Of a stretch of DNA of 59,025 nucleotides, positions 1 to 16,550 are shown in pieces. Source of the stretch: an uncultured Gammaproteobacteria bacterium (GTDB lineage: Bacteria > Patescibacteriota > Microgenomatia > Daviesbacterales > UBA10151). The position numbers and the translations under genes are program-made. The stretch lies in contig CAYUPO010000002.1 in assembly GCA_964446685.1 (NCBI GenBank), forward strand, positions 3,606 through 62,630, in the 5' to 3' direction. The notes below the pieces were generated by a model. That model did not search any database. It saw only the letters and a program-made list of their open reading frames with translations, and had not been told where the DNA came from. Position 1 is the stretch's first letter. Every line of letters starts with the position of its first letter.

Positions 1-365
1 TAAAATTTTTGCTTATTCCTTTATTTATCGGCGTCTTTGCTTATACTTCAATAAACTCAGGTGTTGGAGAAGAAAAAGAGATTGAACAAACAATCAGTCT
101 GATTACCATGTTTTCAATTATCTTTGTTTTCATCGCCAAAAATATTAAATTTCGTTTACTTTCATTATTTGGAAATTATTCTTATGAAATATATTTATTG
201 CACTGGCCTTTGCTGGCTCAATATGATCTGTTTTACCGTTATTTACCTGCCGCAGCAGCGACTCTCTGTTATTTAGTCTATTTTCTGATTTTGGCTTTTA
301 TTTTAAGAAAAATAACGGATTTGATTTCATTTACGAAATACAAAAAGCTGGAGAAAACTAGTTAA
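1..365 (+). CDS. Acyltransferase family 3 (OafA/YrhL-like) membrane protein, 5'-truncated by window edge
   Basis: Frame open to the window edge; hydrophobic helices plus the family-typical C-terminal motif GNYSYEIYLLHWPLL; overlaps the convergent gene by 8 nt. Confidence 0.75.
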   Translation, partial: KFLLIPLFIGVFAYTSINSGVGEEKEIEQTISLITMFSIIFVFIAKNIKFRLLSLFGNYSYEIYLLHWPLLAQYDLFYRYLPAAAATLCYLVYFLILAFILRKITDLISFTKYKKLEKTS

Positions 366-1667: not shown

Positions 1668-3296
1668 TTATTTTTGATTAACAAATATTGCCTCTGTATT
1701 AAGATCATTTAAAAACTCTTCTTTTAATTCATAAATATCTGCAAAAGGATATTTTGCAACCAGACGATATCTTGATAACCCATCACTATTTTTAATTAAT
1801 CTCCAAGTCGAATCATTATCATCGTAAGTTCTAGTCACAATCCATCTGGCCCATCTGTCTGGCGATCCGGTAGCAGCTTTCCAATATTCTCCGGTTCCTT
1901 CATGAATAAACCGATCCATCGGTAATCCAGATGAAAAAATGATTGCATCATGTGAAGCGGCGGAAATCAGAATAAATCCTTTTTGGCCAGTTGCATGTTC
2001 TTTAATATAACCTGATACTTCAGAAACATTTTTTTGACTTGAACCAACTCTAGCATCATCGATTGTAGCTGCGTCAAAACTATTAAACTGAAAAAAGGTA
2101 ACTAAAATTAATAATCCAATTAAAACAATTTTTAAATTATCCAGTTTGTGAACCAGGTAACCGGTAAATACTGCGATAAATGGCATTAACATGACTCCAT
2201 ATCGGACATTAAACCAGGTATCACCATTAATACCTTGAATAAACAAAACTGAAAACCCTAGATAAAGAGCTAAAATATTAAAAAATAAGGGGCCAAGCAA
2301 TGCAATTGAGGCAAGTTTGTTATTTAAACTGACTTTTTTATCTAACCAAAAAACTGCTCCTCCGAAGAAACTTAATAATGAAATGAAAGTATTGCTGTTA
2401 TAAAACAGAGCATAAAAATAGGTCTGAGTAGAAATCCACCAGTTATTCTTTGTAATTAAATTCCCCGCTTGATCAAGTTGTTGTTGTTGAGCATGAGCAG
2501 AATATGGACCGAGTGCAAAATAAAGTGCATCGCCAAAAATTAACTGATTCCACAAAAACCACAGAATTATTCCCAACCCACCTAAAGTACAAAATAAGAA
2601 AAATAGTCCCTCAGCCCCTTTGTATCCTTTTTTGCGATAACCATGAATAACAATTAAAATGGCTGTGATCAAAAATAAAAACCAACCATCATACCTGGTT
2701 AAAGTAGCCATCATTAGCCAAAAAGCAGTTTTTAATAAATCAATAATTCTCTGATTTTCAAACCAAAGAATTAAATAATAAGCACCAGCAGTCGATGTAG
2801 CAATTAGCAGCAACTCAGTCATTGCTGTTGATTGCAAATATAAAATATTTAAGTTTAAGGCAAATACTAAGACACCAATTATTCGACCCAAGAAAGATAC
2901 ATTGAGATGTTTTAATATCAGATAGATTAATACTCCAGTTGCCACATAAGAGATCATCGAAACAATCGCTCCTGAAAGTCCTGTATGCCACATGAAATCG
3001 TTCCAGATTGTCGGAATCATTAGAATATGATTAAGCGGTAACCAGACTGATCCAAGCTGTGCTAAACCGGGTTTTAATCCTTCAACAACCCGTCGACCAA
3101 TATCTAAATGGGATCTGGCATCGTTATATGCTAGAGCTAATCCATCTGAAATAAATACTAGAAAAAATGCTATTGATATTCCAGTCAGAAATAGAGTTAT
3201 AAATAACACAGCTTTTCGCTCAAAAAAATTAAATAAACTTTTTAGAATATTTGTTTTTAAAACAATCTCAATAGTTGTAAATTTTGATATATTCAT
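1668..3296 (-). CDS. GT-C fold (PMT/ArnT-like, GT39/GT83-like) polytopic membrane glycosyltransferase
   Basis: More than 10 TM segments; first external loop YNDARSHL with acidic residue; TRYDGW; soluble C-terminal domain. Confidence 0.7.
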   Translation of the reverse strand: MNISKFTTIEIVLKTNILKSLFNFFERKAVLFITLFLTGISIAFFLVFISDGLALAYNDARSHLDIGRRVVEGLKPGLAQLGSVWLPLNHILMIPTIWNDFMWHTGLSGAIVSMISYVATGVLIYLILKHLNVSFLGRIIGVLVFALNLNILYLQSTAMTELLLIATSTAGAYYLILWFENQRIIDLLKTAFWLMMATLTRYDGWFLFLITAILIVIHGYRKKGYKGAEGLFFLFCTLGGLGIILWFLWNQLIFGDALYFALGPYSAHAQQQQLDQAGNLITKNNWWISTQTYFYALFYNSNTFISLLSFFGGAVFWLDKKVSLNNKLASIALLGPLFFNILALYLGFSVLFIQGINGDTWFNVRYGVMLMPFIAVFTGYLVHKLDNLKIVLIGLLILVTFFQFNSFDAATIDDARVGSSQKNVSEVSGYIKEHATGQKGFILISAASHDAIIFSSGLPMDRFIHEGTGEYWKAATGSPDRWARWIVTRTYDDNDSTWRLIKNSDGLSRYRLVAKYPFADIYELKEEFLNDLNTEAIFVNQK

Positions 3297-4903
3297 TTGT
3301 TACTCCATTTCAACATCAACATTAAAGAAACAGACGGTATTAAAATGATCGCCACTAAAATATAAAGATATTCTTGAGCTGTAATATATTGATGAGCAAT
3401 TGTTTGAAAAACAAAAGATTTTGAATGATTACTGATCAAAAAATCCCAGTTTCTGGCATAGGTATATTTTTGAACCTGGCCCGAAAGTTTTTCCAGTTCC
3501 AAAACCTCAACCTGAGGAGGGTTTGCACTTGAAGTAATAGCCCCTAAAGTATTCACAAAAACTGAGTAAGAAAAGAAAATAAAAAATAAACCAAGAAACC
3601 ACCATTTTTTACGCCAGTAGGTGAGCAGCATACCGATAAAAATTGCTAAGATTGCATATGCTGGAGTAAGATACCTTGAACCAAAAGCCCATCCTCCCCA
3701 ATAATCCCCCCACATTGAATACAGGACTATATTAATCGCCATAACCGATACCAAAAGAGCCATATACATCATTTTTTTACGATAAGCGAGATACAACCCA
3801 ATAAAGCCAAATAAAATAACTGGACAATAATAAATAATTCCCCGATCAGGACTAATCCAGTGAATGTTAAATGCACTGAGCATACTTCTGGTACTAAAAA
3901 ATCCAGCCGCTGAACGACTTTGAGAAGAAGTGTTAGTAAATTTCTGTAAATCCGTAGTAGTATTTCCTTTTGGAACGGTTGGCTTTCCATTATTATCAAT
4001 TTCTTGTACTGAGGCCACAGTTCCGGCCAATTGAAAAGGACTACCATAAGAAACTTGATTAAACCAAAGCAAAAAAGCTAAAGGGAGGACTGCAGCAGCA
4101 AAGGTTAAGAAGCCTAAAATATTTACCTTTATACTCATTTGGTTATTGCTTTGGACAACTCTGATCAATCTTAATAATCCAAAAATACCTAATGGAAGCA
4201 TCATAAATAAATTTGGGTAATCCACCGAAAGAGATAAAGCCGCTAAAAACCAAACTCCAACCAAACTCCAAACAGTTTTAAATCGAACCAGAAAATACAA
4301 GCTCATTAGTAACAAAAAAATAGAAACATGATGTTGAAATAGCGATACAGCATAAACAAATGAGGGTGTCGCAAACAGAAAAGTTAAGGAAGCCAGTAGT
4401 CCGGCAGTTTTGCTACCTCCTAGCAATGACACAATTGATTTGATAAGAAAGGCATTTAATATTGCAAAAATCGCTATTACAGCATAGGCTCCCACCTGAG
4501 AAGCTCCTAATACCTTACCTAACAAATAACCTGGCAACACAACAAAAGAAACTCCTTGAGCAAACAGTGACACAAAGTTTCCATTTTTATATCCCAAGTC
4601 CGGTGTTGCAAAACGAGCCACTGGAACTGAAAAGTGGACACTCTTATCTTCGATCAGTGAATAGGTTAAAGCAAATCTTCCACGTTCTGGAGATAGTTCA
4701 AGGGGACCATTATCTTTCCATACCATCTGATTTAATTCATTTATATTTGGAACTCCAGGCAGACCTCGCAGTGTTAAACTCAAAATAACTACTAAAAAGA
4801 TCAGAAAGACACTATTTCCAATTAGATTACCAAAAAACCCCCATATTTTATGAGATGTAAAAGGTTGCATATTTTTTGTAATTTGATTTAATTTACTATT
4901 CAT
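3293..4903 (-). CDS. Second GT-C fold membrane glycosyltransferase
   Basis: Polytopic; loop acidic residues (ELSPE, TPDLG); SVDYP; late-loop motif WGGWAFGSRYLTP; 4-nt start/stop overlaps with both neighbours. Confidence 0.65.
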   Translation of the reverse strand: MNSKLNQITKNMQPFTSHKIWGFFGNLIGNSVFLIFLVVILSLTLRGLPGVPNINELNQMVWKDNGPLELSPERGRFALTYSLIEDKSVHFSVPVARFATPDLGYKNGNFVSLFAQGVSFVVLPGYLLGKVLGASQVGAYAVIAIFAILNAFLIKSIVSLLGGSKTAGLLASLTFLFATPSFVYAVSLFQHHVSIFLLLMSLYFLVRFKTVWSLVGVWFLAALSLSVDYPNLFMMLPLGIFGLLRLIRVVQSNNQMSIKVNILGFLTFAAAVLPLAFLLWFNQVSYGSPFQLAGTVASVQEIDNNGKPTVPKGNTTTDLQKFTNTSSQSRSAAGFFSTRSMLSAFNIHWISPDRGIIYYCPVILFGFIGLYLAYRKKMMYMALLVSVMAINIVLYSMWGDYWGGWAFGSRYLTPAYAILAIFIGMLLTYWRKKWWFLGLFFIFFSYSVFVNTLGAITSSANPPQVEVLELEKLSGQVQKYTYARNWDFLISNHSKSFVFQTIAHQYITAQEYLYILVAIILIPSVSLMLMLKWSNK

Positions 4904-5592
4904 AGTGATTTTTCCAAAACATGATTAAAAAAACCCATACGATGATGAATATATTTTCTAACAGAACTATTTTGTAATTTCTTTTTAAATTCAACATATT
5001 CTTTAAGCAAAAATTTATTCTTTTCTAAAGCTCGAAAAACTTTCATACTTCTAATATACCCCTTAAACCAGGGATCCACTAAAGTAATTTCAACATTTAT
5101 ATCATCCACTTTAAATACCCATTCCGCAAACATTTTTCTAATTTTTTCAGGCTCACCAAATAAGGCTACAAGTTGAGGAATAAATGTTTCGAATTCACTT
5201 GCTTTTGCTTCAACAAATAGATCTATATCACGTTCTCCCAACACTTTTAACTTCGCTGACCCCACAAAATTCACCTTCAACTCTGGCATCTTTTTTTGAA
5301 TTTGTGCTATTAGTTTATCCGCAATTTTTTGAAGATCATTTTTGTAGGGAACTATATGCACTTTTTTAGTTGCCGGAATAGCCAAAAGATAAATATAGTC
5401 TTTTGGTGTGGTGTAAAATAATTTTAATTCAGAAATTAACCAACTACCCCATTTTGTGATTACTTCAGCTATATCAGATAAAATCAAAAATTCTACCAGA
5501 ATTCCTAAAGCTACTATACACATTAAAAGCCAGATACTCACAGGAATCCATCCAGTTTTTATTAAAAAGTTATTTAACAATAAGTGAATCAT
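4900..5592 (-). CDS. GrpB/UPF0157-like nucleotidyltransferase-fold protein with N-terminal hydrophobic segment
   Basis: HIVPY...FVGSAKLKVLGERDIDLFV (GS + DxD); C-terminal EYVEFKKKL helix typical of GrpB. Confidence 0.65.
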   Translation of the reverse strand: MIHLLLNNFLIKTGWIPVSIWLLMCIVALGILVEFLILSDIAEVITKWGSWLISELKLFYTTPKDYIYLLAIPATKKVHIVPYKNDLQKIADKLIAQIQKKMPELKVNFVGSAKLKVLGERDIDLFVEAKASEFETFIPQLVALFGEPEKIRKMFAEWVFKVDDINVEITLVDPWFKGYIRSMKVFRALEKNKFLLKEYVEFKKKLQNSSVRKYIHHRMGFFNHVLEKSL

Positions 5593-7427
5593 TTAATTGT
5601 ATTAACCTCCAATCCAATTCTTTTTCTTAAATTTATATAAGAAATTGATGACAATAATGTAAACTGGATTTTTTCTTTCAACTTTAAAAGACCCATATAA
5701 AAACTCATCCAAAAAATACCCAGGGGTGACAACATTGCTTCAAATTGTTGCTGACTTATTAAATTTTCCATTGAAATTCGATTATTAAGAAACTTTGAGT
5801 CTTGCAACTTAAAAGCTCCTCCATCAACGGTAAAAGCATTTTTATAACCAGCCTTTTTAACAACTTCGATAATATTATTACTGTAGATTCCTCGTGGATA
5901 GGCAAAATATTTCAATTTAAATCCCAAACTTTTTTCAAGTTTTATCTTACTTATTAAAATTTCTTCCTTAAGCTCTGTTTGAGATAAAAGCCTTAGGTCT
6001 GAATGTGTTTTTGTATGATAGCCAATTTCCCAGCCCTCTTTTTTCAAAAATTTAATTTGTTTTGTGTTTAGTAAAGGTAACTGGTTATCCAGTTCAGATC
6101 TGTTAGCTTCAGCTGCGTTTCCAAGAACAAAAAGAGTAGCCGGTATTCGATACTTTTTTAATATTTTATGAACATCTGTTAAGTTATCCATGTACCCATC
6201 ATCAAAAGTAAGTGCAACACTATTTTTAATACTTTTTCCATTAACCAACTGATCCAATGAAACTAATTTATAATGTTCCATTAAGTACTGAATTTGTTTT
6301 AAAAATTGTTTTTTAGAAACGGAAAATCTCCAGTCTCCATCACTTACTGAGTGATAACACAAAACCACTGAGTTATTTTTACTATTCAAAACCTTAAACA
6401 ATTTATTTACCATATCAACTAAGTTCAAACCAAATAACATAAATCGTTCTGCAACAGAAATAGTTTTAGACTGATTTTTGATAAAAGAGGCCACAAAAAT
6501 TGTTAAAAAATCATAGCTTTCTTTATACTCCGCACTTTTGCTACTAGAAATAGCCATCATTTGAATCGAATAAAAAATAGCCAAAGCTAAGAACTTTTTT
6601 TCGGAGTAACCATTATTAAATTTATCCTCAAGAAAATTATTTAGCTCTTGCCGTAATTCAGCAAATCCTCCCTTAGCCACAATCGCCAAATCTGTTTCTT
6701 TTTCAGCCAAGACCATAACTTCTGGATCTAGAATAGTGAGAGTATTGTTTCGAACAATGATATTCTTCGAATGAATGTCTCTATGACTTAAAACAAATTC
6801 ACTTGAAAAAATGGTCGATAAATAGTTTAAATAAAATAAAAAACTTAATTTTAAATACATCAGTAGATTTTTAAAATCTTTAACTAAAGTGAATAAAAGA
6901 TACACCGGAAAAGTCAATATATTTTGTATTTGACTAATTTTAGGAAATTTTTCAATGATTGGTTTAGATGCGGTATTAGATAGAGTTTGGAAAAAAGAAA
7001 GTATTCGAGAAAAATGGTTAATTTTTTCATCAGCTTTTAAATTAAAAAGAGTCATACCGTGAATGTACTCACTAACATACCCAATTTGACCTTTATTATT
7101 TAATTCACTTAGGACTTGAGGGAACCTAATTTTAAATTGATTATTTTTTCCTACTAATAAATTCAATGCCTTTAAAATCACTATTTCTTGTCTAAGCTGA
7201 AAATATGTTATATCCTTCCATATATAATCCCATGTTTTAACTACAACTTTTTGTTTGTTTAAGGAATATAGTGCAACCAGTGGTTTTATATTAGATACAT
7301 CAGCCAATGGTTTAACAAATTTCATTTTTAATATTTGTTTTTTAAATATTTGATTTTTTCTCTTAAAAAAACCAATTTTTTTAATTAAAACCCCATATAT
7401 AATTTTTTGTATAGTTAGATAATTCAT
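5589..7427 (-). CDS. Fusion: APH/choline-kinase-like phosphotransferase + CE4 polysaccharide deacetylase (IcaB/PgaB-like)
   Basis: Kinase motifs VVVK, HRDIHSKN, DPE; deacetylase motifs LCYHSV, TFDDGY, HTKTH, FAYPRG in one ORF. Confidence 0.8.
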   Translation of the reverse strand: MNYLTIQKIIYGVLIKKIGFFKRKNQIFKKQILKMKFVKPLADVSNIKPLVALYSLNKQKVVVKTWDYIWKDITYFQLRQEIVILKALNLLVGKNNQFKIRFPQVLSELNNKGQIGYVSEYIHGMTLFNLKADEKINHFSRILSFFQTLSNTASKPIIEKFPKISQIQNILTFPVYLLFTLVKDFKNLLMYLKLSFLFYLNYLSTIFSSEFVLSHRDIHSKNIIVRNNTLTILDPEVMVLAEKETDLAIVAKGGFAELRQELNNFLEDKFNNGYSEKKFLALAIFYSIQMMAISSSKSAEYKESYDFLTIFVASFIKNQSKTISVAERFMLFGLNLVDMVNKLFKVLNSKNNSVVLCYHSVSDGDWRFSVSKKQFLKQIQYLMEHYKLVSLDQLVNGKSIKNSVALTFDDGYMDNLTDVHKILKKYRIPATLFVLGNAAEANRSELDNQLPLLNTKQIKFLKKEGWEIGYHTKTHSDLRLLSQTELKEEILISKIKLEKSLGFKLKYFAYPRGIYSNNIIEVVKKAGYKNAFTVDGGAFKLQDSKFLNNRISMENLISQQQFEAMLSPLGIFWMSFYMGLLKLKEKIQFTLLSSISYINLRKRIGLEVNTIK

Positions 7428-7430
7428 AGT

Positions 7431-8336
7431 TTAATTTTTGGTTGAGGTTGCTGTGAACCAAGTTAATTTATAATTTTTACTTATCAGTGAGAAAAATGGG
7501 CGGCAAAGAGAATTAATAAACACAATATATAGTGTTGGAACAGGATACTGGAATAACACTTTGATAATGGTATTGAAATAGAAATTTAATGGTCTTCTAT
7601 ATTCTTTTTCCACTAACCCTTTGAATCTTTTATTTAAACTCACTCTAACCGCTTCAGGATTTGATCGAAACACCTGTTTCAAATAATCGGACAATTTAGT
7701 CGGCAATCTGTAATACACTACTGAGTCACTTACATGAACAAATTTTCGCTTTTGCTTGAGACAACTGAAATAAATAAAATCATCTTCATTCATAACTTTT
7801 GGGAATTTTAAACTTTTAGCAAAACTTTTTCTCATCATCATACAAGCCCCAGTACATCCAAAAATATTATGACCGTTATTCATTTTCTTACGTGATTCAT
7901 CGAATACTAAGAATGTTGAATAGACTGCTTTTTCAAAAAAAGTTATTGGTTTTTTAGGTCTTGTATTTCCTCCTACTAAAGCCACATCTTCATTTTTAAA
8001 TGGTTTAACTAAGTTACTAATAACCTGATTGCTTTTTATTTCAATATCAGCATCTAACATTAAAATAAATTCACCTTCAGCTTGCTTAAATATCTGCCCC
8101 ATTCTCAGAGCTTTTCCTAGTCTTTTACCATCATCAATAACATTCACCAATTTACTTTTCACTTGACGAGCTTTTTCAGCAGTTTGATCATTACAACCAT
8201 CACAAGTTATTAAAATCTCTTTAAGTAACCAGCCTTCTGCTTTTTGTTTTAGAACAGCTTCGATTACTCTTTTAATTGTCTTTTCTTCATTGTAGGCTGA
8301 AATACCAACCGTAATAGTTACATTTTTATTGTTCAT
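7431..8336 (-). CDS. Glycosyltransferase family 2
   Basis: VGISAYNEE, DGCND, LDAD (DxD), EDD. Confidence 0.85.
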   Translation of the reverse strand: MNNKNVTITVGISAYNEEKTIKRVIEAVLKQKAEGWLLKEILITCDGCNDQTAEKARQVKSKLVNVIDDGKRLGKALRMGQIFKQAEGEFILMLDADIEIKSNQVISNLVKPFKNEDVALVGGNTRPKKPITFFEKAVYSTFLVFDESRKKMNNGHNIFGCTGACMMMRKSFAKSLKFPKVMNEDDFIYFSCLKQKRKFVHVSDSVVYYRLPTKLSDYLKQVFRSNPEAVRVSLNKRFKGLVEKEYRRPLNFYFNTIIKVLFQYPVPTLYIVFINSLCRPFFSLISKNYKLTWFTATSTKN

Positions 8337-8340
8337 ATAT

Positions 8341-10407
8341 TTATCTGGATGAAATTACTTTTGTAGTCGTTAATGTTTGCCACATTCCTTCTTTATTTAA
8401 CACATCATTTTGCGGAGCAATTCTGATAATTATGTTTAGAATTACAACCCCTAAACAAACTACTGGATTAAATAATCCCAGTCTAGCCAATTCTTTTAGT
8501 TTGGTTTTAGTTGGAATATGATGAGCCTTCAAACTTTCCGGCCCAAAATACTCAACAATATAATTTCGCTCATTAAGCACTCTTCTTCCATGAACTAAAT
8601 ACTCTCTAAAACTTTGAACTGGTTTAAAGTAAAAACAGGTATTTTTAGCAAATCTAAATCCATCAACTTTTTTTGCTGAAAAATAAAGATACTCTTCATC
8701 CGCAGTAATATTTACTGGATAGACTACTGTTTTAGCAAATGCTCCGTTAACCAACGTAGCTGATCCATACAAATTTGCAATATGATCACCTGAATTTAAA
8801 TCCTGACGCATTTCATTCCATAAAGCATAATTTTGATAGTAGAGTGTTTTAATAAATCCTTTAGGTTTAATTGGTATCAAATTACCACCTACCACCACAC
8901 CATTTTTCCCCATTGCCTTAACCATGATATTAATCTCCTCTTTTGTACCGAGTTTTACATCAGCATCCAAAGTAAGTAACAGCTTACTTTTATTTAACTG
9001 GTAAATTTGATTTAATCTTGATGCTTTACCCATTCTTTTCCCATCATGATGAAGTTTTATAATTGGATACTTTTTAACAAGCTTTTCCACTATTTTATTA
9101 GTACCATCAGTGCATCCATCTGTCACAATAATTATTTCTTCCAATTTATATGCAGTTTGTTTTTGATCAATCACGCCTTCGATAATATATTTAATATTAT
9201 TGGATTCGTTATAAGCTGGGATTCCAACACTAAGAGATGCAATTTTGTCAGTTTGCATTTGCTTTATTTCTTCTAATCCTTTTTTCACCATGTTAATTAC
9301 ATATTTGACCTCTTCTACTGTCATCCCAGCATGTAGAGGCAGTCTCAACAATCTTCCGGCAATACTCTCAGTTACAGGTAAATCTTCAGCTTTATATCCC
9401 ATTTTGCGTCCATATGGAGAGGAGTGAAGAGGAACATAGTGGAAAGTCGCACCTATTCCTTTCTCTTTAAGAAATTTCAGTAAAAAATTTCGATTCTCAT
9501 TATCAGATAATAAAATGTAAAAAATATGAGCGTTATGATTTGAGTATTTTGGCAAAGTTGGTAACTTAATTAATCTTTGATTTTGAAAGCTTTTTAGTAC
9601 GGTACTATATTTATTATAGATCGTCAAACGTTTTTTAATATTTTTACTTACATTCTCAAGCTGTGCATATAAAACAGCGGATAATAAATCCGAGGGAAGA
9701 ATACTGGAACCAATATCAACCCATGTATATTTATCAACTTGTCCGAGCATAAATTCAGTTCGATTAGTTCCTTTTTCGCGAATAATTTCTGCTCTACGAA
9801 TGACTTTTTCATCTTTTGTATTAATAAGTAACAGACCACCTTCACCCGATACTACATTTTTTGTTCCATGAAAACTTAAACATCCAAAATCCCCAATCGT
9901 TCCTAAGTATTTATTTTTATGCTTAGCCTCAATACATTGCGCTGCATCCTCAATAACTTTTAAGTTAAATTTTTTGGCTATTTTCATTATTCTGTCCATA
10001 TCACAAGCCACACCAGCATAATGAACGACCATGATTGCCTTCGTTTTCTTTGTGATTTTTCTTTCAATATCATCCGGATCAATATTTAATGTATCCTCTG
10101 TTACATCTACAAATACTGGTTTAACAAAATTAACCAATATTGCATTAACAGTTGAAGAAAAAGTAAACGAAGGAACCAAAATTTCATCATCTTGTTCTAA
10201 ATTAAGAAGTCTCACTGCAAACTCCAAAGCTGTTGTTGCAGAAGTTGTCATCAAAGCCCTTGCAACACCATACTTTTTTTCAAAATAATTATGAACTTTT
10301 TGAGTATATTCACCATCACCAGCAATATCCTTTTCGTTTTCAATAACATCTTGAAGATACTCCAGCTCCTTACCTGAATAGAATGGTTTTGTAAATTTAA
10401 TATTCAT
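8341..10407 (-). CDS. wecE: Fusion: dTDP-4-amino-4,6-dideoxygalactose transaminase (WecE/RffA, DegT family) + C-terminal GT2
   Basis: EDAAQ, PLP-lysine motif SFHGTKN, NAHIFY, FHYVPLH, RLLRLPL; then VGIPAYNE/DGCTD/LDAD; GGAGG Shine-Dalgarno upstream. Confidence 0.85.
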   Translation of the reverse strand: MNIKFTKPFYSGKELEYLQDVIENEKDIAGDGEYTQKVHNYFEKKYGVARALMTTSATTALEFAVRLLNLEQDDEILVPSFTFSSTVNAILVNFVKPVFVDVTEDTLNIDPDDIERKITKKTKAIMVVHYAGVACDMDRIMKIAKKFNLKVIEDAAQCIEAKHKNKYLGTIGDFGCLSFHGTKNVVSGEGGLLLINTKDEKVIRRAEIIREKGTNRTEFMLGQVDKYTWVDIGSSILPSDLLSAVLYAQLENVSKNIKKRLTIYNKYSTVLKSFQNQRLIKLPTLPKYSNHNAHIFYILLSDNENRNFLLKFLKEKGIGATFHYVPLHSSPYGRKMGYKAEDLPVTESIAGRLLRLPLHAGMTVEEVKYVINMVKKGLEEIKQMQTDKIASLSVGIPAYNESNNIKYIIEGVIDQKQTAYKLEEIIIVTDGCTDGTNKIVEKLVKKYPIIKLHHDGKRMGKASRLNQIYQLNKSKLLLTLDADVKLGTKEEINIMVKAMGKNGVVVGGNLIPIKPKGFIKTLYYQNYALWNEMRQDLNSGDHIANLYGSATLVNGAFAKTVVYPVNITADEEYLYFSAKKVDGFRFAKNTCFYFKPVQSFREYLVHGRRVLNERNYIVEYFGPESLKAHHIPTKTKLKELARLGLFNPVVCLGVVILNIIIRIAPQNDVLNKEGMWQTLTTTKVISSR

Positions 10408-11513
10408 TAGCTAATTCCTCCTTTGACATCATATAAAAAATCTTCGTAATCAGTGACTACTTTTTCCCACGTATACTTTCTAGCAATTCTTCGTAGAGAA
10501 ATACCTTTACTTATAGTTTTATTTTTATCAGCAGCTTTTAATAATAACTTGGAATATTCATTTACATCAAACATCGGAGCTTTATAAATTGAATCCTTCG
10601 GCAACCATTTCAAACTAGGAATATCAAAGGAAACAAGCAGTAAAGCTGCAGCCATTGCCTCTAATACAAAAAGAGAAAATCCCTCATGTCTTGATGGGAA
10701 AGCCACAAACAAAGCTTTCGATAACAAATCAAATTTCTTTTTTCCATAAGCTGGACCAACTATTTTAACTTTTGAATCCAAGTTTAATTCTTTAATAAGT
10801 TGGCGAATTTTTTCTTCATCTGGTCCTTTTCCAGCCAAGACTAATGGGAAATTTATTTGAGACTGAACCTTAGCATAAGAATGCAGTAACAAATCAATTC
10901 CTTTTTGCCCCATATCAAATCTTCCTAAAAATAAAATAAATTCCGGTTTATTTTTTTTAATTGCAAAATATTCATTACCAACACCTTCTGGGACAATTCT
11001 GGTTTTAATTTTTGGATTTGCTTCTTTAAATTTGGAATCAAAAATATCAGTGTAGGGTAAAGCATATTTGTAGATTTTCAAACCTACTTTTTCTACCAGA
11101 TTGAATGGAAGTTTATAAAGTTTGCTAAATCGATCAGCTTCAAAAGAAGTTGGAATAGCAACAACAGGAATCTTTGTCCACAATGGAGAAAATAGAGTCG
11201 AAATAGGAGCTGTGAAACATTCTAAAAAGACATCAGTTTTAATTGAGGGAACAACAAAAGGAAGTGAGAAAATATAAATTAAATTATTTAATCTAATATT
11301 TGGAGTTGAAATTCCAATATGTCGATAGTATAAGCCATTTTCCATCCGATCCTTATATTGTTGATACTTAGAACTAATAACCTGCACCGTGTGACCTTTT
11401 TTGGCCAAACGACTTCCAACTTCCAGAGTCGCCCTTGCTTGTCCGGCATTTAATAGCGGATTTTTGATATCATCAAAATCTAAAAAAGTAATATTTAATT
11501 TTGTGTTTTTCAT
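10407..11513 (-). CDS. Glycosyltransferase family 4
   Basis: FLGRFD..QKG, PSRHEGFSLFVLEAMA; start moved to ATG 11513 because GGAGG lies just upstream. Confidence 0.85.
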   Translation of the reverse strand: MKNTKLNITFLDFDDIKNPLLNAGQARATLEVGSRLAKKGHTVQVISSKYQQYKDRMENGLYYRHIGISTPNIRLNNLIYIFSLPFVVPSIKTDVFLECFTAPISTLFSPLWTKIPVVAIPTSFEADRFSKLYKLPFNLVEKVGLKIYKYALPYTDIFDSKFKEANPKIKTRIVPEGVGNEYFAIKKNKPEFILFLGRFDMGQKGIDLLLHSYAKVQSQINFPLVLAGKGPDEEKIRQLIKELNLDSKVKIVGPAYGKKKFDLLSKALFVAFPSRHEGFSLFVLEAMAAALLLVSFDIPSLKWLPKDSIYKAPMFDVNEYSKLLLKAADKNKTISKGISLRRIARKYTWEKVVTDYEDFLYDVKGGIS

Positions 11514-11570
11514 AATTGTATCCTCCAATACGGTATTATAGGACATAAATACCAAAAAAACTATAGGTAT

Positions 11571-14500
11571 TTATTTTACAGTACCCCAAACTACTTTCCG
11601 TATAAATTGAGTCTCTTTTTTACTTAAATTACGCTGAATAATATTTGCAAAATTATCTGCTGATATATCCCAATCAAACTTTTTAGCCCAGGACACTGAT
11701 TGTTTACTCATTTTATTACGCATTCTGGTATCTGAAATTAACAGCATCATTGTTTCAGAAAAACCATTTGTATCTCTTGGATTTACTAAGAATCCGGAAA
11801 ATTTATCAGAAACTGAATCCTTTAAACCATTTACATTAGAAGCTATCACAGGTGTTCCAACAGCATTGGCTTCTATGACTGTTATCCCCCAACCCTCTAA
11901 CATTGAAGGCTGGATAAAGACCCAATGCGATGACATTAAAATTATTTTTTCCTCATCACTAACTTTCCCAACAAACTCCACTTTTTCATTCAACTCCAAA
12001 GATGAAACCAAATTTTTAAGTGATTTGAGACTTTCACCAAATCCTGCGATTGTGAAACGAGCTTCAGGATATTTTTCACTAACCGTTTTAAAAGCCTTAA
12101 TTGCTATATCAATATTTTTGTATGTCTGTAAACGACCTAAATACAAAAAAGACGGATATGTTGTTTTATTTACTTTACTTAATTTCTTATGAGTAAATCC
12201 GGGATTAACTACCTGTATAGTATTTTCATTCCCTAATTTTATTTTAAGTATCTCTTTCTTCGATGATTCAGAAACTGTAATAACTGCCGATTTTTTATAC
12301 ACTAGCGGCATGATTACTGCCTCTAAAAACATTGCTATATAAGAGAATGGAAAAAGCAGCTGTCTTCTAAAAACTTCTTGATGAATATGATGAATTAGTA
12401 GATATTTAGGAATTCTAACAAATAGTGGAGTAAAAAACGGTAAACCGTTTTCTGAATCAATAACTACATCAAACAAACCTCTAAATCTCAAAACATAATA
12501 TACAGCCGCCCAAAAATAAACAGTGTAAAAACCTCCCCGTCTGACCATTTGAACACCGTCAATTACTTCATTTCGTGGATTTTTACTATCATTTCCGCAA
12601 AAGATTGTCACTCGGTGTCCTTGAGATACCCATCTTTTAGCTAGTTCATGAATATATACTTCAGCACCCCCAGCCCATACATGTTTTGTATCGCGCCAAT
12701 TAAAAATTAATATCCGTTGTCCATCAAAATTATCACTACTTTTAAAACTTTTTTTATAAAGAGGTTTAAATATCCCAATCAAATCAACCAGATTTTTTGA
12801 AACCAACCATAATGAGTTTCTAAAAATAAATAACACAGTCAGTAAAATTAGATTAATCGCACTTACCCCAAACATCACCATTATTACTTCTAATAAGTTT
12901 TGATGTAGAAGGCTGATTAGAACAATCTGACAAATTGAAACAATAAATCCAACGGTTACAAAAAAATAATTTTCCCTAGCTTGAAAATAAGAAACTATAG
13001 TTTGTGACATACTAAACATCAACATGGTTAGTAAATAGAATGGGAGATAACTCAATATGGCATATGCTTTATCTCCAAATAACATTGGCATCAAATAGTT
13101 GCCAAATAGTAGAAGTGGAGCAGCCGCGCAAAGAGTCATAATACAAGTCAGGGAAAATAGCCAGATAAATATTTTTTCACTATCTTTTTTGGCTCCCTGA
13201 CTATGTGCTACAAGTGGTAGCATTAATGTTCCTGTTAAAGTTCCAAAGAAAAAAACTATCTTTCCTGCCAAACTTAGAAGGGCATATTGACCAGCTTCTA
13301 CCGGATTCAAAAAATGCTTGACTAACACAATATCTAAGCCCAAAAATGCAATATTGGCTAATCCATATAAGACTGCAGAAAAATAAAATGAAGTATTAAA
13401 TTTTGCATCAGATGGTTCAACTTTAACTGAACTTTGTTTGAAAACGTAAATAAAACTAAGCAAAAGTGGCATAGCTGTAGATATTAAAATTGATAGATAA
13501 ACCAAATCATGACGACCTGACTGAATAATTATGAAGGCCAGCAGAAATTTCACTAAAGGTTCAAAAATCGCAATAATAGCTAACACTGCAAACGCCAATG
13601 TTCCTTTTAAATATCCACCATAGACAGCGCTACTTAAACTAATCAACCAAACAGGTGTAAAAAGTAAAAATAACCATATAGAATTAGTATTAAAAAAAGT
13701 CGGTAAATATGGAGTTAATAAAAGCCAGGTAACTGTTAACAAACCACCACCAATTAAAACTCTTTTCCATAAATGACTTAAATAACCCCTTGAAGCTTCC
13801 TGAGAATGTTTACCAAATAAATAGGCTACTTTTTGAGTGGTTGAGCTAGCCAGTGAATTGATCGGAATAGCTGATAAAAAAAGCAAACTACTAACTAAAG
13901 TTAAATTACCAAAATCTTCAACAGTTAAGACTCGCCCGAGATATGCATTGAAACCAAAGTTGATAAAGTTTGCAGTCGCATTTGCCAAAACAAATACAGA
14001 CCCAGCAAAAACTATCTTTTTATCTCCTATTAAATTTCGAATTTTATTTTTAAACTTTGATCCAAAATGAACATGCTCCCGTTGTTCAACACTTTCTATA
14101 GCAATTGGTGCAATATTTTCTTCAGCAATCAGATCTTTAACTTTTTCTAAATGAAGACCATGAATTGTTTTTTCCCAATAATGAGGCTTAACTATTAATT
14201 GATATAACGCCAAAAAGCCTGCCCAGGAAACTAGTAACCAATAAAATGGAACTAATAAAACATACTTTACCAGACTCCATTGTTCTCTCTTGGCCACCCC
14301 AATCATGTAATAGTACATGAAAAGAAAATTCCCAAAGACAAGTGATAAACCTGCCATATAAAAAATATAAACCGGATAAAGGGATTCAATTGCTGGACCA
14401 ACAATTGGTCTTAAAACAAAATACAAAATAGTCATCACCCATAGAAAAGGATTAATGAAAATAAAAGCAATCTTCCCACCCACAACCATCTGAAAAACTA

Positions 14501-16283
14501 AAGAATGCCAACCTTGTTTCTTTGCAGCTTCAATAGGATTTCGCATATGTACTAAATATGTCTGCATATATCCTTTTATCCATCTTGAACGCTGCCTGAT
14601 CCAATTTCTAACATTTGAATTCGCTTCTTCTAAAGTTGTTGAATCAATAATTGCTGTTTTATAGCCATGAAGGAAAAGCCTTAAACCTAAATCACAATCC
14701 TCTGTTACATTAAATGGATCCCACCCCTCCAAAGATCTTAATGTTTCAGTTTTAAAATGATTACTGGTTCCTCCTAAAGGAATTGTTGTCGCAATTGACT
14801 GTAGCCCTGTTAGAGTCACATCAAACCACAATGAATATTCCGCAGTAAAAAGTCGGGTTAATAAGTTTTGATACGGATTGTGATAATTAAGTTTCGCCTG
14901 CAAACAGATTACATTTGAATCAATCGTTTGAAATGCCGCAAACGCTTTCTTCAACTGCAGTGGATCCGGAATATCTTCAGCATCATAGATAACTAAATAC
15001 TCACCAGTTGCTTGAGTTAATCCATAATTACAAGCTTTTGGTTTTGTTTTAGGTTGTGAATCTGGAACTACTACTACTTTTACATAAGAAGGTAATTTTA
15101 AATTCTTAGCTGCAAGTTGTGTTTCTTGATCATCCTCTTCCAGTAATAACATTACCTCTAGCTTCTTTTTTGGCCAATCCATTTTTGAAATTGAATCTAA
15201 AAATATCGGCAGAACAGATGCTTCTTTATACAATGGACATAAAACAGTATAAATTGGTAAATCTTTATCTTTTATTTTTGATACTTCTGCAGTTGAAATA
15301 GTTATTTCTGGAGGGTTGTGTAAACTTTTATAAATTAGATAAAAATTAAATATAACGTCTACAAAATAAATAAATGACAGCACTGCTACCACCATTTGCA
15401 ATCCAAGTAAAAAATTCCAAATTAATATAGCAATCAAACTAACAGCCAAAAACCATAACCAAATTTTTTGATTAAAACTTAGTACTTTAATTGCAGATTT
15501 ATCTGAATGTAATGTTGTATGGGTTACATATTTTTTCTTGTTGTAGGCGACTCCAGCGTCTTTCATTTGTCTTTTTAAAGAATGGAGTGGATATACTTTT
15601 TGTGGTCTTAATTTATAAACTAGAGTTTGTGTACCGATTTCAAAGGAAGTTTTTAAGGTGTTTACTTTTGAAAGACCATTTTTTCTTGGGGCAAATTCAA
15701 TTTCAACTTCTCCAATTGAATGTCCAAGATCTGTAGCAGTGTGCAATAGAGGAACATCCAATGACCAGGCACTTATTTCTTTTTCATCAATTGCTTCAAT
15801 GATCTCTCTTTTGAATAATTTTAATCCAGATTGGACATCACAATTAAAATCAAAAAGCAGTTTACCAAATAAATATTTAAAACTATCGCTGACAAATTTT
15901 CTTAATTTTGTTCCACCGTATTTTTTCCGGCTTGCAACCACAACTCCATGCTCTCCAGCTTTTTCAAACATTTCAGGAATAGCTTCAGGTGGATACTGTA
16001 AATCCCCATCAATCATTACTAACGTATCTGCAGTAGAATAACGAACCCCTTCAATAATTGAAAAAGCTTTTCCTTTTTTACCTTGTTTTGTGTAGACCCG
16101 AACAGGGAAGTCTTTAGCCAGCTGATGGATCATATCAACGGTCGCATCAGTTGATTTATCATCAACAAAGATAATTTCATGCGTAATACCAGCTTGATTC
16201 AGCGAAGAATTAATTCTTCTGACCAAATCGTTAATATTTTCTGCTTCATTTTTTACCGGAACAATTACATCTAGGTATTTCAT
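11571..16283 (-). CDS. 1570-aa four-module fusion: DPM1-like GT2 + processive membrane GT2 synthase + Wzx/MOP-like flippase + GT4
   Basis: VDDKSTD/IDGDLQYPP; PLYKE, YDAED, TED, QRSRW, YWEKTIHG; ~12-TM block starting ANFINFGFNAYLGRVL; NWRD..AGGAE...EGWGITVIEA. Confidence 0.85.
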   Translation of the reverse strand: MKYLDVIVPVKNEAENINDLVRRINSSLNQAGITHEIIFVDDKSTDATVDMIHQLAKDFPVRVYTKQGKKGKAFSIIEGVRYSTADTLVMIDGDLQYPPEAIPEMFEKAGEHGVVVASRKKYGGTKLRKFVSDSFKYLFGKLLFDFNCDVQSGLKLFKREIIEAIDEKEISAWSLDVPLLHTATDLGHSIGEVEIEFAPRKNGLSKVNTLKTSFEIGTQTLVYKLRPQKVYPLHSLKRQMKDAGVAYNKKKYVTHTTLHSDKSAIKVLSFNQKIWLWFLAVSLIAILIWNFLLGLQMVVAVLSFIYFVDVIFNFYLIYKSLHNPPEITISTAEVSKIKDKDLPIYTVLCPLYKEASVLPIFLDSISKMDWPKKKLEVMLLLEEDDQETQLAAKNLKLPSYVKVVVVPDSQPKTKPKACNYGLTQATGEYLVIYDAEDIPDPLQLKKAFAAFQTIDSNVICLQAKLNYHNPYQNLLTRLFTAEYSLWFDVTLTGLQSIATTIPLGGTSNHFKTETLRSLEGWDPFNVTEDCDLGLRLFLHGYKTAIIDSTTLEEANSNVRNWIRQRSRWIKGYMQTYLVHMRNPIEAAKKQGWHSLVFQMVVGGKIAFIFINPFLWVMTILYFVLRPIVGPAIESLYPVYIFYMAGLSLVFGNFLFMYYYMIGVAKREQWSLVKYVLLVPFYWLLVSWAGFLALYQLIVKPHYWEKTIHGLHLEKVKDLIAEENIAPIAIESVEQREHVHFGSKFKNKIRNLIGDKKIVFAGSVFVLANATANFINFGFNAYLGRVLTVEDFGNLTLVSSLLFLSAIPINSLASSTTQKVAYLFGKHSQEASRGYLSHLWKRVLIGGGLLTVTWLLLTPYLPTFFNTNSIWLFLLFTPVWLISLSSAVYGGYLKGTLAFAVLAIIAIFEPLVKFLLAFIIIQSGRHDLVYLSILISTAMPLLLSFIYVFKQSSVKVEPSDAKFNTSFYFSAVLYGLANIAFLGLDIVLVKHFLNPVEAGQYALLSLAGKIVFFFGTLTGTLMLPLVAHSQGAKKDSEKIFIWLFSLTCIMTLCAAAPLLLFGNYLMPMLFGDKAYAILSYLPFYLLTMLMFSMSQTIVSYFQARENYFFVTVGFIVSICQIVLISLLHQNLLEVIMVMFGVSAINLILLTVLFIFRNSLWLVSKNLVDLIGIFKPLYKKSFKSSDNFDGQRILIFNWRDTKHVWAGGAEVYIHELAKRWVSQGHRVTIFCGNDSKNPRNEVIDGVQMVRRGGFYTVYFWAAVYYVLRFRGLFDVVIDSENGLPFFTPLFVRIPKYLLIHHIHQEVFRRQLLFPFSYIAMFLEAVIMPLVYKKSAVITVSESSKKEILKIKLGNENTIQVVNPGFTHKKLSKVNKTTYPSFLYLGRLQTYKNIDIAIKAFKTVSEKYPEARFTIAGFGESLKSLKNLVSSLELNEKVEFVGKVSDEEKIILMSSHWVFIQPSMLEGWGITVIEANAVGTPVIASNVNGLKDSVSDKFSGFLVNPRDTNGFSETMMLLISDTRMRNKMSKQSVSWAKKFDWDISADNFANIIQRNLSKKETQFIRKVVWGTVK

Positions 16284-16523: not shown

Positions 16524-16550
16524 TCGCCACACAGGAAAAACTATAAGCAT

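What the first reader, a model, noticed from the sequence alone, without database searches (positions are those of the whole stretch)
11571..16283. 1570-aa four-in-one enzyme: GT2(DPM1-like)-processive synthase-flippase-GT4
Seen: a single stop-free ORF. Approx. aa 1-225 has DPM1/ArnC-like motifs (VDDKSTD, IDGDLQYPP). Approx. aa 255-715 has the full D,D,D,QxxRW set (YDAED, TED, QRSRW) with flanking TMs. Approx. aa 755-1165 is a ~12-TM Wzx/MOP-like block, and approx. aa 1190-1570 is a GT4 (EGWGITVIEA). The DAED and WEKTxH motifs resemble, from memory, the NfrB-like synthase clade, but no MshEN c-di-GMP domain is visible. A polymer-translocating synthase fused to a separate lipid flippase and two donor enzymes suggests an assembly line that channels substrates.
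Basis: partly seen in the sequence, partly recalled or inferred. Interest (0 to 1): 0.85.

Follow-up and report, generated by a model that had tools for sequence, protein, structure and literature searches.

The report
Four-module glycan synthase-flippase fusion protein
One 1570-residue membrane protein of an uncultivated Patescibacteria (Microgenomates) bacterium really does join a lipid-carrier sugar-charging enzyme, a cellulose/hyaluronan-synthase-like polymerase, a Wzx-type flippase and a fourth glycosyltransferase; relatives carry it in at least 120 sequence clusters, but I found no paper describing it.

Summary
The ORF is real: window 11571-16283, minus strand, 1570 aa. Contigs from four sequencing runs match it with no differences or indels. 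At least 120 full-length orthologues (48-85% identity) occur in Microgenomates-group Patescibacteria.

All four modules were tested:
- aa 1-225 is a DPM1/ArnC/GtrB-type GT2.
- aa 271-715 is a membrane GT2 synthase. It has invariant DAED, TED and QRSRW motifs and a BcsA/hyaluronan-synthase-like predicted fold.
- aa 756-1155 is a 12-helix MOP (Wzx/MurJ/MATE) fold. Pfam does not detect it in this sequence. The evidence is an AlphaFold model with Foldseek, plus Polysacc_synt hits in homologues.
- aa 1191-1570 is a GT4.

The NfrB resemblance holds only for motifs (DAED, W[DE]KTxH). NfrB family models do not match and there is no MshEN domain.

Relatives carry the same modules as two adjacent genes, without the flippase block, or as separate genes. 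The fusion is therefore a "Rosetta stone" for one pathway, not an obligatory channelling device.

The gene leads a conserved operon with two polytopic, weakly GT-C-like proteins.

The most likely function is a synthase-made surface polymer combined with a lipid-carrier/flippase route. This mechanism is inferred. No description was found in the searchable literature.

The parts
11571..16283 (-). Whole ORF, 1570 aa plus stop; first gene of a co-directional operon
   Evidence: orthologues; contigs of four runs with 0 differences
15609..16283 (-). Module 1 (aa 1-225): GT2 of the polyprenyl-phosphate sugar synthase type (DPM1/ArnC/GtrB-like). Invariant DD41-42, D92xD94, R200xxG203xS205
   Evidence: Pfam PF00535 E 1.4e-40. 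PDB: Pyrococcus DPMS 5mlz E 9e-21, ArnC, GtrB sll0501. 28% identity to E. coli ArnC over 218 aa, E 8e-24. Invariants
15474..15608 (-). Connector 1 (aa 226-270): conserved, with predicted short beta-strands (G244, T254, H255 invariant); not a floppy linker
14139..15473 (-). Module 2 (aa 271-715): membrane-embedded GT2 synthase. It has 2 TM helices, a GT-A domain, an interface helix carrying QRSRW, and 3-4 further hydrophobic helices. It is the most conserved module
   Evidence: Pfam PF13641/PF13632. NCBIfam CelA 65.8 bits, PgaC 61.2 bits. AlphaFold model m75c4c00cdf3e; Foldseek hits to hyaluronan synthases, BcsA and PcManGT. Conservation
14973..14984 (-). DAED (aa 434-437), the DxD-type motif; invariant
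   Evidence: same tetrapeptide in NfrB
14697..14705 (-). TED (aa 527-529); invariant
14580..14594 (-). QRSRW (aa 564-568), the QxxRW motif; invariant
14160..14177 (-). WEKTIH (aa 703-708), just after the last synthase TM helix. H701/W703/K705/T706/H708/G709 are invariant. It matches NfrB WDKTTH and sits where BcsA has the FxVTxK gating loop (that equivalence is inferred)
14019..14138 (-). Linker 2 (aa 716-755): poorly conserved, predicted disordered. Relatives are split into two genes at this point
   Evidence: pLDDT <50 for aa 721-752; conservation 0.39; split loci
12819..14018 (-). Module 3 (aa 756-1155): 12-helix MOP-superfamily (Wzx/PST-like) transporter domain. Conserved polar residues include D984, Y1000 and K1008
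   Evidence: No Pfam hit on its own. AlphaFold pLDDT 89.3, pTM 0.87. Foldseek top 50 hits are all MOP (MurJ, MATE, WzxE). 20 of 41 homologues hit PF01943. Orthologues hit PF01943 in the same block
12714..12818 (-). Linker 3 (aa 1156-1190)
   Evidence: conservation 0.40
11574..12713 (-). Module 4 (aa 1191-1570): GT4 (GT-B) glycosyltransferase. Invariant NWRDxxHxWxGGAE (aa 1195-1208) and E1463-GWG...E1471 (EX7E-type)
   Evidence: Pfam PF13439 and PF00534, E 6.6e-43; NCBIfam Agl16, MshA and others below cut-off; invariants
10407..11555 (-). Next gene: separate GT4 (382 aa)
   Evidence: syntenic in L004, L007, L009, L011, L016
8341..10407 (-). DegT/ArnB-type aminotransferase fused to a GT2 (688 aa)
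   Evidence: 30% identity to E. coli ArnB, E 6e-52
7431..8336 (-). Soluble-type GT2 (301 aa)
5589..7427 (-). 612-aa protein: weak APH-kinase-like N-terminal part plus a CE4 polysaccharide deacetylase
3293..4903 (-). 'GTC2': conserved polytopic membrane protein (536 aa), weakly GT-C-like
   Evidence: No Pfam hit itself. 5 of 36 family members give weak hits to Mannosyl_trans4, Glyco_transf_22 or PMT. Syntenic in 9 loci
1668..3296 (-). 'GTC1': highly conserved polytopic membrane protein (542 aa, about 63% identity across relatives); family unknown
358..1629 (-). Membrane-anchored extracytoplasmic protein (423 aa) with no family match. Syntenic; a glycoside hydrolase is suspected from motifs only

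Best explanation
The gene encodes one polytopic cytoplasmic-membrane protein of a Microgenomates-group Patescibacteria bacterium. It strings together four glycan-biosynthesis modules, each with conserved catalytic or polar motifs, and it leads a conserved surface-glycan operon.

Shown here:
- Module 1 is a DPM1/ArnC/GtrB-type GT2.
- Module 2 is a membrane GT2 with the full D, DxD, TED, QxxRW signature and a predicted cellulose/hyaluronan-synthase-like fold.
- Module 3 has the MOP (Wzx/MurJ/MATE) transporter fold.
- Module 4 is a GT4.
- The catalytic motifs of all three GT domains are invariant in 120 orthologues.

Inferred mechanism:
- Module 2 polymerises a sugar from a nucleotide donor and pushes the chain through its own membrane channel.
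- Module 1 loads a sugar onto polyprenyl phosphate at the cytoplasmic face.
- Module 3 flips that, or another lipid-linked glycan, to the outer face.
- The two co-conserved polytopic proteins (1668-4903) then use it outside the cell to decorate, or transfer, the polymer.
- Module 4 and the operon's soluble GT2/GT4/DegT/CE4 enzymes supply or modify further sugars.
- All GT domains face the cytoplasm. The reasoning is by analogy: the WEKTIH motif corresponds to NfrB's WDKTTH, which precedes NfrB's cytoplasmic c-di-GMP domain, and MOP domains have both termini inside.

The fusion records a functional partnership but is not mechanistically obligatory.
For: - ORF and motifs.
- Not an artefact: four runs, 0 differences; at least 120 full-length orthologues, 98-100% coverage.
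- Module 1.
- Module 2; the AlphaFold model (pLDDT 84.7) gives Foldseek hits to HAS 8smn (E 2.6e-10), BcsA 4p00 (rmsd 4.9 over 450 columns) and PcManGT (TMt 0.73).
- Module 3: model pLDDT 89.3, pTM 0.87. The top 50 PDB hits are all MOP-superfamily proteins: MurJ TMq 0.73, WzxE TMt 0.71. 20 of 41 homologues hit Polysacc_synt and 11 hit Polysacc_synt_3. Orthologues hit PF01943 across the same block.
- Module 4.
- Invariant catalytic motifs in all three GT domains; the synthase is the most conserved module.
- Synteny with GT4, GT2s, CE4, GTC2, GTC1 and the 423-aa protein in L002, L004, L009-L012, L015, L016 and L018.
- The same modules occur as two adjacent genes (L010, L012-L014) or as separate neighbouring genes (L019, L020), so they belong to one pathway.
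- Weak GT-C family hits in the GTC2 family.
- Precedent for GT-A + Wzx-type flippase + GT-C decoration of a wall polymer: GacI/J-GacK-GacL (PMC8035078).
Against: - There is no biochemical evidence of any kind, and the polymer is unknown.
- The synthase fold is shared by the non-processive PcManGT, so processivity is inferred from motifs only.
- GT-C status of the partners is weak. GTC1 has no Pfam or PDB match, and hhalign against ArnT gives probability 0.2. GTC2 has only scattered sub-threshold hits.
- The flippase block is absent from orthologous loci L009, L011 and L016 and halved in L015, with no other MOP or small GtrA-like ORF within about 10 kb. It is therefore not integral to the synthase's function.
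- AlphaFold gives no confident synthase-flippase interface (pTM 0.63, disordered linker).
- The number of membrane crossings after the GT domain (3 or 4) is not settled. One 44-residue helix (aa 592-635) is ambiguous.
Confidence: 0.55

Rival explanations
1. A Wzx/Wzy-type lipid-linked repeat-unit pathway. The GT4 module, the synthase-like GT2 (acting non-processively, like PcManGT) and the operon's soluble GTs build an oligosaccharide on a polyprenyl-PP carrier. The MOP module flips it. GTC1 and GTC2 act as polymerase and/or ligase rather than as GT-C decorating enzymes.
For: - MOP+GT4 is the commonest fused pair among relatives of the flippase block: 49 of the 150 best cluster representatives are of MOP+GT4 size, and examples were checked.
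- The GT4 aligns full-length with Agl16, a GT that acts on a lipid-linked glycan.
- There are several soluble GT2/GT4 genes in the operon.
- PcManGT shares the fold.
- GTC1 and GTC2 have no firm family.
Against: - No priming phosphoglycosyltransferase and no recognisable Wzy or WaaL is in the operon (not searched genome-wide).
- The invariant TED and QRSRW set plus a WxKTxH loop shared with the exopolysaccharide synthase NfrB point to processive synthesis (PMC8669469).
- Loci without the MOP block keep GT2a-synthase-GT4.
Confidence: 0.2
2. A protein O-glycosylation machine (Pgf-like). Lipid-P-sugar made by module 1 and flipped by module 3 is used by GTC1 and GTC2 to glycosylate the Gly/Ser-rich sortase substrate encoded next to the operon.
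For: - The 219-aa secreted protein and its sortase (16512-17736) stay linked to the operon in L002, L003, L009, L015, L016 and L018.
- Module 1's best NCBIfam hit among GT2 models is PgfS (80 bits).
Against: - This leaves the most conserved module, the synthase, without a role.
- The PgfS score is far below its cut-off of 500.
- The linkage could simply reflect neighbouring envelope genes.
Confidence: 0.1
3. The MOP block is not a lipid flippase here. It is a scaffold, regulator or exporter of another solute that happens to be fused.
For: - It has no direct Pfam hit and is the least conserved module.
- It is dispensable in cis in L009, L011 and L016.
- The fold alone cannot separate MATE drug exporters from lipid flippases.
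Against: - Homologues hit the polysaccharide-flippase families PF01943 and PF13440 far more often than MatE (20 and 11 versus 4 of 41).
- It sits between glycosyltransferases in every variant.
- Polar intramembrane residues are conserved.
Confidence: 0.08
4. Assembly or sequencing artefact that joins separate genes.
For: Some relatives do have two genes split at linker 2.
Against: Contigs from four runs show identical sequence with no indels across all junctions. At least 120 independent full-length fused orthologues exist, and fused ORFs are present in L002 and L004-L007.
Confidence: 0.01

Closest known systems
Membrane-integrated processive GT2 synthases (BcsA, class I hyaluronan synthases, PgaC/IcaA)
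   Same: Module 2 has TM helices on both sides of a GT-A domain. It has D, DxD, TED and QxxRW motifs and a predicted fold that matches HAS and BcsA.
   Different: No PilZ domain and no BcsB- or PgaD-type partner. Scores are far below all equivalog cut-offs. It is fused N-terminally to a DPM1-like GT2 and C-terminally to a flippase and a GT4.
NfrB, the c-di-GMP-activated exopolysaccharide synthase of E. coli (PMC8669469)
   Same: It shares the exact motif set DAED, TED, Q[RK]SRW and a W[DE]KTxH motif directly after the last TM helix.
   Different: Identity is 21%. The NfrB and PRK15489 NCBIfam models do not match. There is no MshEN domain and no NfrA or YbcH. A linker, a MOP domain and a GT4 stand where NfrB has MshEN.
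Multi-component transmembrane glycosylation systems (GtrA/B/C; CsbB-GtcA-YfhO; GacI/J-GacK-GacL) (PMC8035078, PMC11127046)
   Same: They combine a GtrB/DPM1-like GT2, a flippase (Wzx-type in the Gac system) and polytopic outer-face transferases. This is the logic proposed here for module 1, module 3 and GTC1/GTC2.
   Different: Here the first two parts sit in one polypeptide together with a synthase and a GT4. The backbone would come from a synthase rather than an ABC-transporter or LTA route. The GT-C partners are unconfirmed.
Wzx (PST-family) and MurJ flippases of the MOP superfamily
   Same: A 12-helix domain with a MOP fold. Homologues match Polysacc_synt and Polysacc_synt_3.
   Different: It is embedded in the middle of a multi-enzyme protein. 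The window's own sequence is too diverged for Pfam. The substrate is unknown.
Arn pathway (ArnB, ArnC, ArnD, ArnE/F, ArnT)
   Same: The operon holds an ArnB-like aminotransferase (30% identity), an ArnC-like GT2 (28% identity), a CE4 deacetylase-family enzyme, a flippase and polytopic membrane proteins.
   Different: There is no ArnA. The flippase is MOP, not ArnE/F. GTC1 shows no detectable similarity to ArnT. DegT and CE4 are not present at all orthologous loci.

Membership tests
Polyprenyl-phosphate glycosyltransferases of GT2 (DPM1/DPMS, GtrB, ArnC) | GT-A domain with a DxD motif, homologous over the whole catalytic domain to solved members | tested here: met
   PF00535 E 1.4e-40. 5mlz aa 4-215 E 9e-21, ArnC and GtrB E about 1e-15. 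D92xD94 invariant.
Polyprenyl-phosphate glycosyltransferases of GT2 (DPM1/DPMS, GtrB, ArnC) | Conserved RxxGxSK stretch after the catalytic core, and attachment to the membrane | tested here: met
   R200/G203/S205 are invariant and align with ArnC EREFGESK. The domain is followed by TM helices at aa 270-322. That this stretch binds the lipid phosphate is from memory.
Polyprenyl-phosphate glycosyltransferases of GT2 (DPM1/DPMS, GtrB, ArnC) | Reaches a curated equivalog score (ArnC, PgfS, AglJ) | tested here: not met
   70.8 bits against 529; 80.4 against 500; 53.2 against 325. It is a family-level relative, not an orthologue of any named enzyme.
Polyprenyl-phosphate glycosyltransferases of GT2 (DPM1/DPMS, GtrB, ArnC) | Transfers a sugar to polyprenyl phosphate | not testable with these tools
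   Needs an enzyme assay.
Processive membrane GT2 synthases (BcsA/HAS/PgaC type) | D, DxD, TED and QxxRW motifs | tested here: met
   DAED 434-437, TED 527-529 and QRSRW 564-568 are all invariant in 120 orthologues.
Processive membrane GT2 synthases (BcsA/HAS/PgaC type) | GT-A domain flanked by TM helices, with a fold like solved synthases | tested here: met
   AlphaFold pLDDT 84.7. Foldseek hits HAS, BcsA (rmsd 4.8-5.3 over about 450 columns) and PcManGT.
Processive membrane GT2 synthases (BcsA/HAS/PgaC type) | Processive polymerisation coupled to translocation through its own channel | not testable with these tools
The non-processive PcManGT shares the fold.
NfrB family | C-terminal MshEN c-di-GMP-binding domain | tested here: not met
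   NF053729 hits NfrB but not the window's module. The sequence after WEKTIH is a linker followed by the MOP domain.
NfrB family | Match to the NfrB/PRK15489 models | tested here: not met
   Only PRK14716.1-3 matches, at 29.9 bits against a cut-off of 409. The CelA and PgaC models score higher. Identity is 21%.
NfrB family | Shared motif signature (DAED, TED, QxSRW, W[DE]KTxH) | tested here: met
   PgaC and BcsA lack DAED and WxKTxH.
MOP superfamily, Wzx/PST-type flippases | 12 TM helices arranged in the MOP fold | tested here: met
   Model pLDDT 89.3, pTM 0.87. The top 50 Foldseek PDB hits are all MATE, MurJ or WzxE, with TM-scores of 0.6-0.76.
MOP superfamily, Wzx/PST-type flippases | Sequence match to PF01943, PF13440 or PF03023 | tested here: inconclusive
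   The window's own block has no hit even at E 10. Orthologues score 25-33 bits against a cut-off of 28.2. 20 of 41 homologues hit PF01943, with a best E of 2.4e-20.
MOP superfamily, Wzx/PST-type flippases | Translocates a lipid-linked glycan | not testable with these tools
   Needs complementation or a flipping assay.
GT4 (GT-B) glycosyltransferases | Both Rossmann halves and the EX7E-type motif | tested here: met
   PF13439 at aa 1205-1362 and PF00534 at aa 1372-1529, E 6.6e-43. E1463 and E1471 are invariant.
Multi-component transmembrane glycosylation system | An outer-face GT-C glycosyltransferase partner | tested here: inconclusive
   GTC2 family: 5 of 36 members give weak hits to three GT-C Pfam families. 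GTC1 has no hit, and hhalign against ArnT gives probability 0.2. Both are syntenic.
Wzx/Wzy-dependent pathway | A priming phosphoglycosyltransferase and a Wzy polymerase | not tested
   None is recognisable in the operon.

The most novel reading that the evidence does not exclude
The fusion and its co-conserved partners (two unannotated polytopic membrane proteins and a membrane-anchored extracytoplasmic protein) form the main secondary cell-wall glycopolymer machine of Microgenomates-group Patescibacteria. In it, two export routes that textbooks treat as alternatives work together in one complex. One is a synthase with its own channel. The other is a polyprenyl-phosphate/Wzx-type flippase route. 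The complex makes a decorated or lipid-primed polymer. The natural variants (fused, split, or flippase-less) would be ready-made dissection mutants.
Probability: 0.3. Interest if true: 0.8.

Novelty: new variant of a known kind. Interest (0 to 1): 0.6.

Why it matters
Patescibacteria are ultrasmall, mostly uncultivated bacteria that live attached to other cells, and how they build their envelope is largely unknown. In genomes this small, a 4.7-kb gene whose synthase module is about 75% conserved probably makes a core surface polymer.

The protein links a synthase-dependent route and a flippase/lipid-carrier route in one chain, or in adjacent genes. That makes one question directly testable: do these routes cooperate on a single polymer? 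The natural split and flippase-less forms offer defined constructs for expression, assay and cryo-EM.

Public annotation currently calls these proteins only "glycosyltransferase".

Tried and rejected
- Pfam and NCBIfam on the isolated TM block gave no hit.
- A PDB sequence-profile search with the TM-block family returned only orexin and cholecystokinin receptor TM segments. I treat these as compositional artefacts.
- PDB profile searches with the GTC1, GTC2 and 423-aa families found nothing meaningful.
- hhalign of GTC1 against E. coli ArnT gave probability 0.2, so I do not call GTC1 a GT-C enzyme.
- Pfam on the 423-aa family found nothing relevant. The glycoside-hydrolase idea rests only on NE/GEFG-like motifs recalled from memory.
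- NfrB-clade membership is rejected.
- A misassembly is rejected.
- A search for a compensating MOP or small GtrA-like ORF in the flippase-less loci found none within the fetched flanks.
- Seven literature searches found no description of the fusion.
- Model coordinates are not exposed, so I could not examine the channel, the membrane-crossing count or the domain interface.

Full report
**Observation.** The interval 11571-16283 holds one open reading frame on the minus strand. It has an ATG start and 1570 codons. The plus-strand frame is full of stops. Pfam finds a GT2 domain at aa 6-163, a second GT2 of the Glyco_tranf_2_3/Glyco_trans_2_3 type at aa 345-633, and both halves of a GT4 at aa 1205-1529. 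Hydropathy shows about 12 hydrophobic helices between aa 757 and 1151.

**Not an artefact.** Contigs from four public metagenome runs (wastewater and freshwater) match 11400-16500 with no differing letters, indels or joints. Pieces from independent samples span the synthase/flippase and flippase/GT4 junctions. A database search returned at least 120 proteins of 1516-1642 aa. They are 48-85% identical over 98-100% of the length. Where a source names them, they are called only "glycosyltransferase", from Gottesman-, Levy-, Woese- and Curtissbacteria and "Microgenomates". Gottesmanbacteria sit in the Microgenomates group of Patescibacteria.

**Module 1 (aa 1-225).** Its nearest solved relatives are Pyrococcus dolichol-phosphate mannose synthase (E 9e-21), ArnC and the GtrB homologue sll0501. 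It is 28% identical to E. coli ArnC over 218 residues. This includes the R-x-x-G-x-S-K stretch, which is invariant in the orthologues. All curated equivalog scores are far below cut-off. It is therefore a family-level relative whose sugar cannot be named.

**Module 2 (aa 271-715).** This is the most conserved part, with a mean consensus frequency of 0.75.
- DAED, TED, QRSRW and H-x-W-x-K-T-x-H-G are invariant.
- NCBIfam's best models are CelA (65.8 bits) and PgaC (61.2 bits), both far below cut-off.
- An AlphaFold model of aa 226-1190 (pLDDT 84.7) gives Foldseek hits to Xenopus and Chlorella-virus hyaluronan synthases and to BcsA (rmsd about 4.9 Å over 450 columns). It also hits the minimal cellulose-synthase-like mannosyltransferase PcManGT.
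- Processivity is inferred from the motif set, not shown. PcManGT shares the fold and, from memory, is non-processive.

**The NfrB lead.** E. coli NfrB carries DAED, TED, QKSRW and WDKTTH at equivalent positions. PgaC and BcsA lack DAED and WxKTxH. BcsA has FNVTAK, its gating-loop motif, in that region. The remembered resemblance is therefore real. However, identity is only 21%, the NfrB models do not match, and there is no MshEN domain. The module is not an NfrB-family member as defined in PMC8669469. The comparison does help with topology. NfrB's WDKTTH is followed by its cytoplasmic c-di-GMP domain. That places WEKTIH, and hence the start of the flippase block, in the cytoplasm. This fits MOP proteins, which have both ends inside, and a cytoplasmic GT4. 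The number of membrane crossings after the GT domain (3 or 4) remains ambiguous, because AlphaFold draws aa 592-635 as one 44-residue helix.

**Module 3 (aa 756-1155).** Pfam and NCBIfam see nothing in this sequence, even when it is scanned alone at E 10. Three lines of evidence assign it.
- A full-library HMMER search found 3142 relatives.
- An alignment of 40 stand-alone relatives gave an AlphaFold model with pLDDT 89.3 and pTM 0.87. Its top 50 PDB matches are all MOP-superfamily transporters: MurJ (TMq 0.73), MATE and WzxE (TMt 0.71).
- Of 41 aligned sequences, 20 hit Polysacc_synt, 11 Polysacc_synt_3, 4 MatE and 1 MurJ. Full-length orthologues hit Polysacc_synt across the same block at 25-33 bits.

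The block is thus a Wzx/PST-like MOP domain. Conserved polar residues (D984, Y1000, K1008) argue that it is functional.

**Module 4 (aa 1191-1570).** This is a GT4 with an invariant E1463...E1471 pair and an invariant N-terminal NWRDxxHxWxGGAE motif.

**Natural variants.** Among loci fetched from species-representative genomes I found these arrangements:
- fully fused: window, L002, L004-L007;
- two abutting genes, GT2a-synthase (about 750 aa) plus flippase-GT4 (about 828 aa): L010, L012, L013, L014;
- no flippase block at all: L009 and L016 as two genes, L011 as a single 1172-aa ORF;
- half a flippase block: L015;
- in distant relatives, separate neighbouring genes for a MOP protein, small GT2s and a GT4 that is 39-40% identical: L019, L020.

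The split point coincides with the linker that AlphaFold predicts as disordered (aa 721-752, pLDDT <50).

Relatives of the flippase block elsewhere are mostly stand-alone (66 of the 150 best cluster representatives) or of flippase+GT4 size (49 of 150). Flippase-GT4, synthase-flippase-GT4, flippase-GT4-GT2 and flippase-GT4-GNAT forms were confirmed by Pfam.

These variants show that the modules belong to one pathway. They also show that covalent linkage, and even the flippase in cis, is not obligatory. This weakens the substrate-channelling idea.

**Context.** The gene is the first of a co-directional minus-strand run:
- GT4 (10407-11555);
- DegT/ArnB-like aminotransferase fused to a GT2 (8341-10407; 30% identity to ArnB);
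- GT2 (7431-8336);
- a weak kinase-like region plus a CE4 deacetylase (5589-7427);
- GrpB (4900-5592);
- two polytopic membrane proteins (3293-4903 and 1668-3296);
- a membrane-anchored 423-aa protein (358-1629).

The two polytopic proteins and the 423-aa protein follow the fusion in every related locus with enough flank. GTC1 is about 63% identical across more than 100 relatives, all labelled hypothetical, and has no Pfam, PDB or ArnT similarity. In the GTC2 family, 5 of 36 members give weak hits to three different polyprenyl-P-mannose-dependent GT-C families. That is suggestive, not proof.

**Mechanism.** The best-supported reading has three parts.
- Module 2 makes and exports a backbone polymer.
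- Module 1 charges polyprenyl phosphate. Module 3 flips that, or another lipid-linked glycan. The polytopic partners use it outside the cell.
- The GT4 and the operon enzymes add or tailor sugars.

The nearest precedent for the second part is the multi-component transmembrane glycosylation systems. Among these, the streptococcal GacI/J-GacK-GacL set uses a Wzx-type flippase (PMC8035078; PMC11127046).

I hold the domain assignments at about 0.9 and this mechanism at about 0.45. The rivals are a Wzx/Wzy-type repeat-unit pathway (0.2), glycosylation of the neighbouring sortase substrate (0.1), and a non-flippase role for the MOP block (0.08).

**Novelty.** Every module belongs to a known family. 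The combination, and its split and flippase-less variants, were not described in any paper I could find. Earlier notes of this scan on other genomes reached the same reading. They are not independent evidence, but I re-derived their main points here. I rate it a new variant of a known kind, interest 0.6.

Noticed in passing
window 1-16000 versus 16000-59025: The glycan operon has a lower G+C content (0.28-0.34) than the rest of the window (0.36-0.41). This is often seen for surface-polysaccharide loci.
   Followed up: no
window 16512-17736 (+): A 219-aa secreted protein with a Gly/Ser-rich linker and an overlapping sortase stay linked to the glycan operon in L002, L003, L009, L015, L016 and L018, on either side of it.
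   Followed up: partly
L009 4976-7417; L010 696-2939; L012, L013, L014; P0029 linker: The separate GT2a-synthase proteins end in a shared ...K(Y/F)AxSxx(F/I) tail. A vestige (SPLSYAISIFF) survives inside the synthase-flippase linker of the fused orthologue P0029. Several GT4 ends carry ...(I/V)TSLF. This may be a membrane-docking peptide.
   Followed up: no
window 15474-15608 (aa 226-270): The connector between module 1 and the first TM helix is conserved (G244, T254, H255 invariant). It is predicted as short beta-strands at pLDDT 73-90, so it is more than a linker.
   Followed up: no
L002-L006, L009, L010, L012-L014, L016, L019: The TPA metagenome-assembled genomes that hold this Patescibacteria-type locus are titled 'uncultured Gammaproteobacteria/Pseudomonadales bacterium'. 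The labels look wrong or are placeholders.
   Followed up: no
L020 8945-15611: A contig labelled Woesearchaeota archaeon encodes the MOP protein, two small GT2s, a 609-aa membrane protein and a GT4 that is 40% identical to module 4, all as separate adjacent genes.
   Followed up: partly
L009 9769-10521; L016 9201-9953: In the flippase-less loci, a 250-aa gene with a PIG-L/LmbE-like 'SPHLDDA' motif follows the GT4 genes. The family was judged from the motif only.
   Followed up: no
window 358-1629 (-): The syntenic 423-aa membrane-anchored protein has invariant CPECENG and LGEFGAP stretches. These are reminiscent of clan GH-A acid/base and nucleophile motifs. No family or PDB match was found.
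   Followed up: partly
window 5589-7427 (-): The N-terminal 350 aa of the CE4 deacetylase protein gives only a weak APH phosphotransferase hit (E 0.0011, below cut-off). The CE4 part matches many solved deacetylases.
   Followed up: partly
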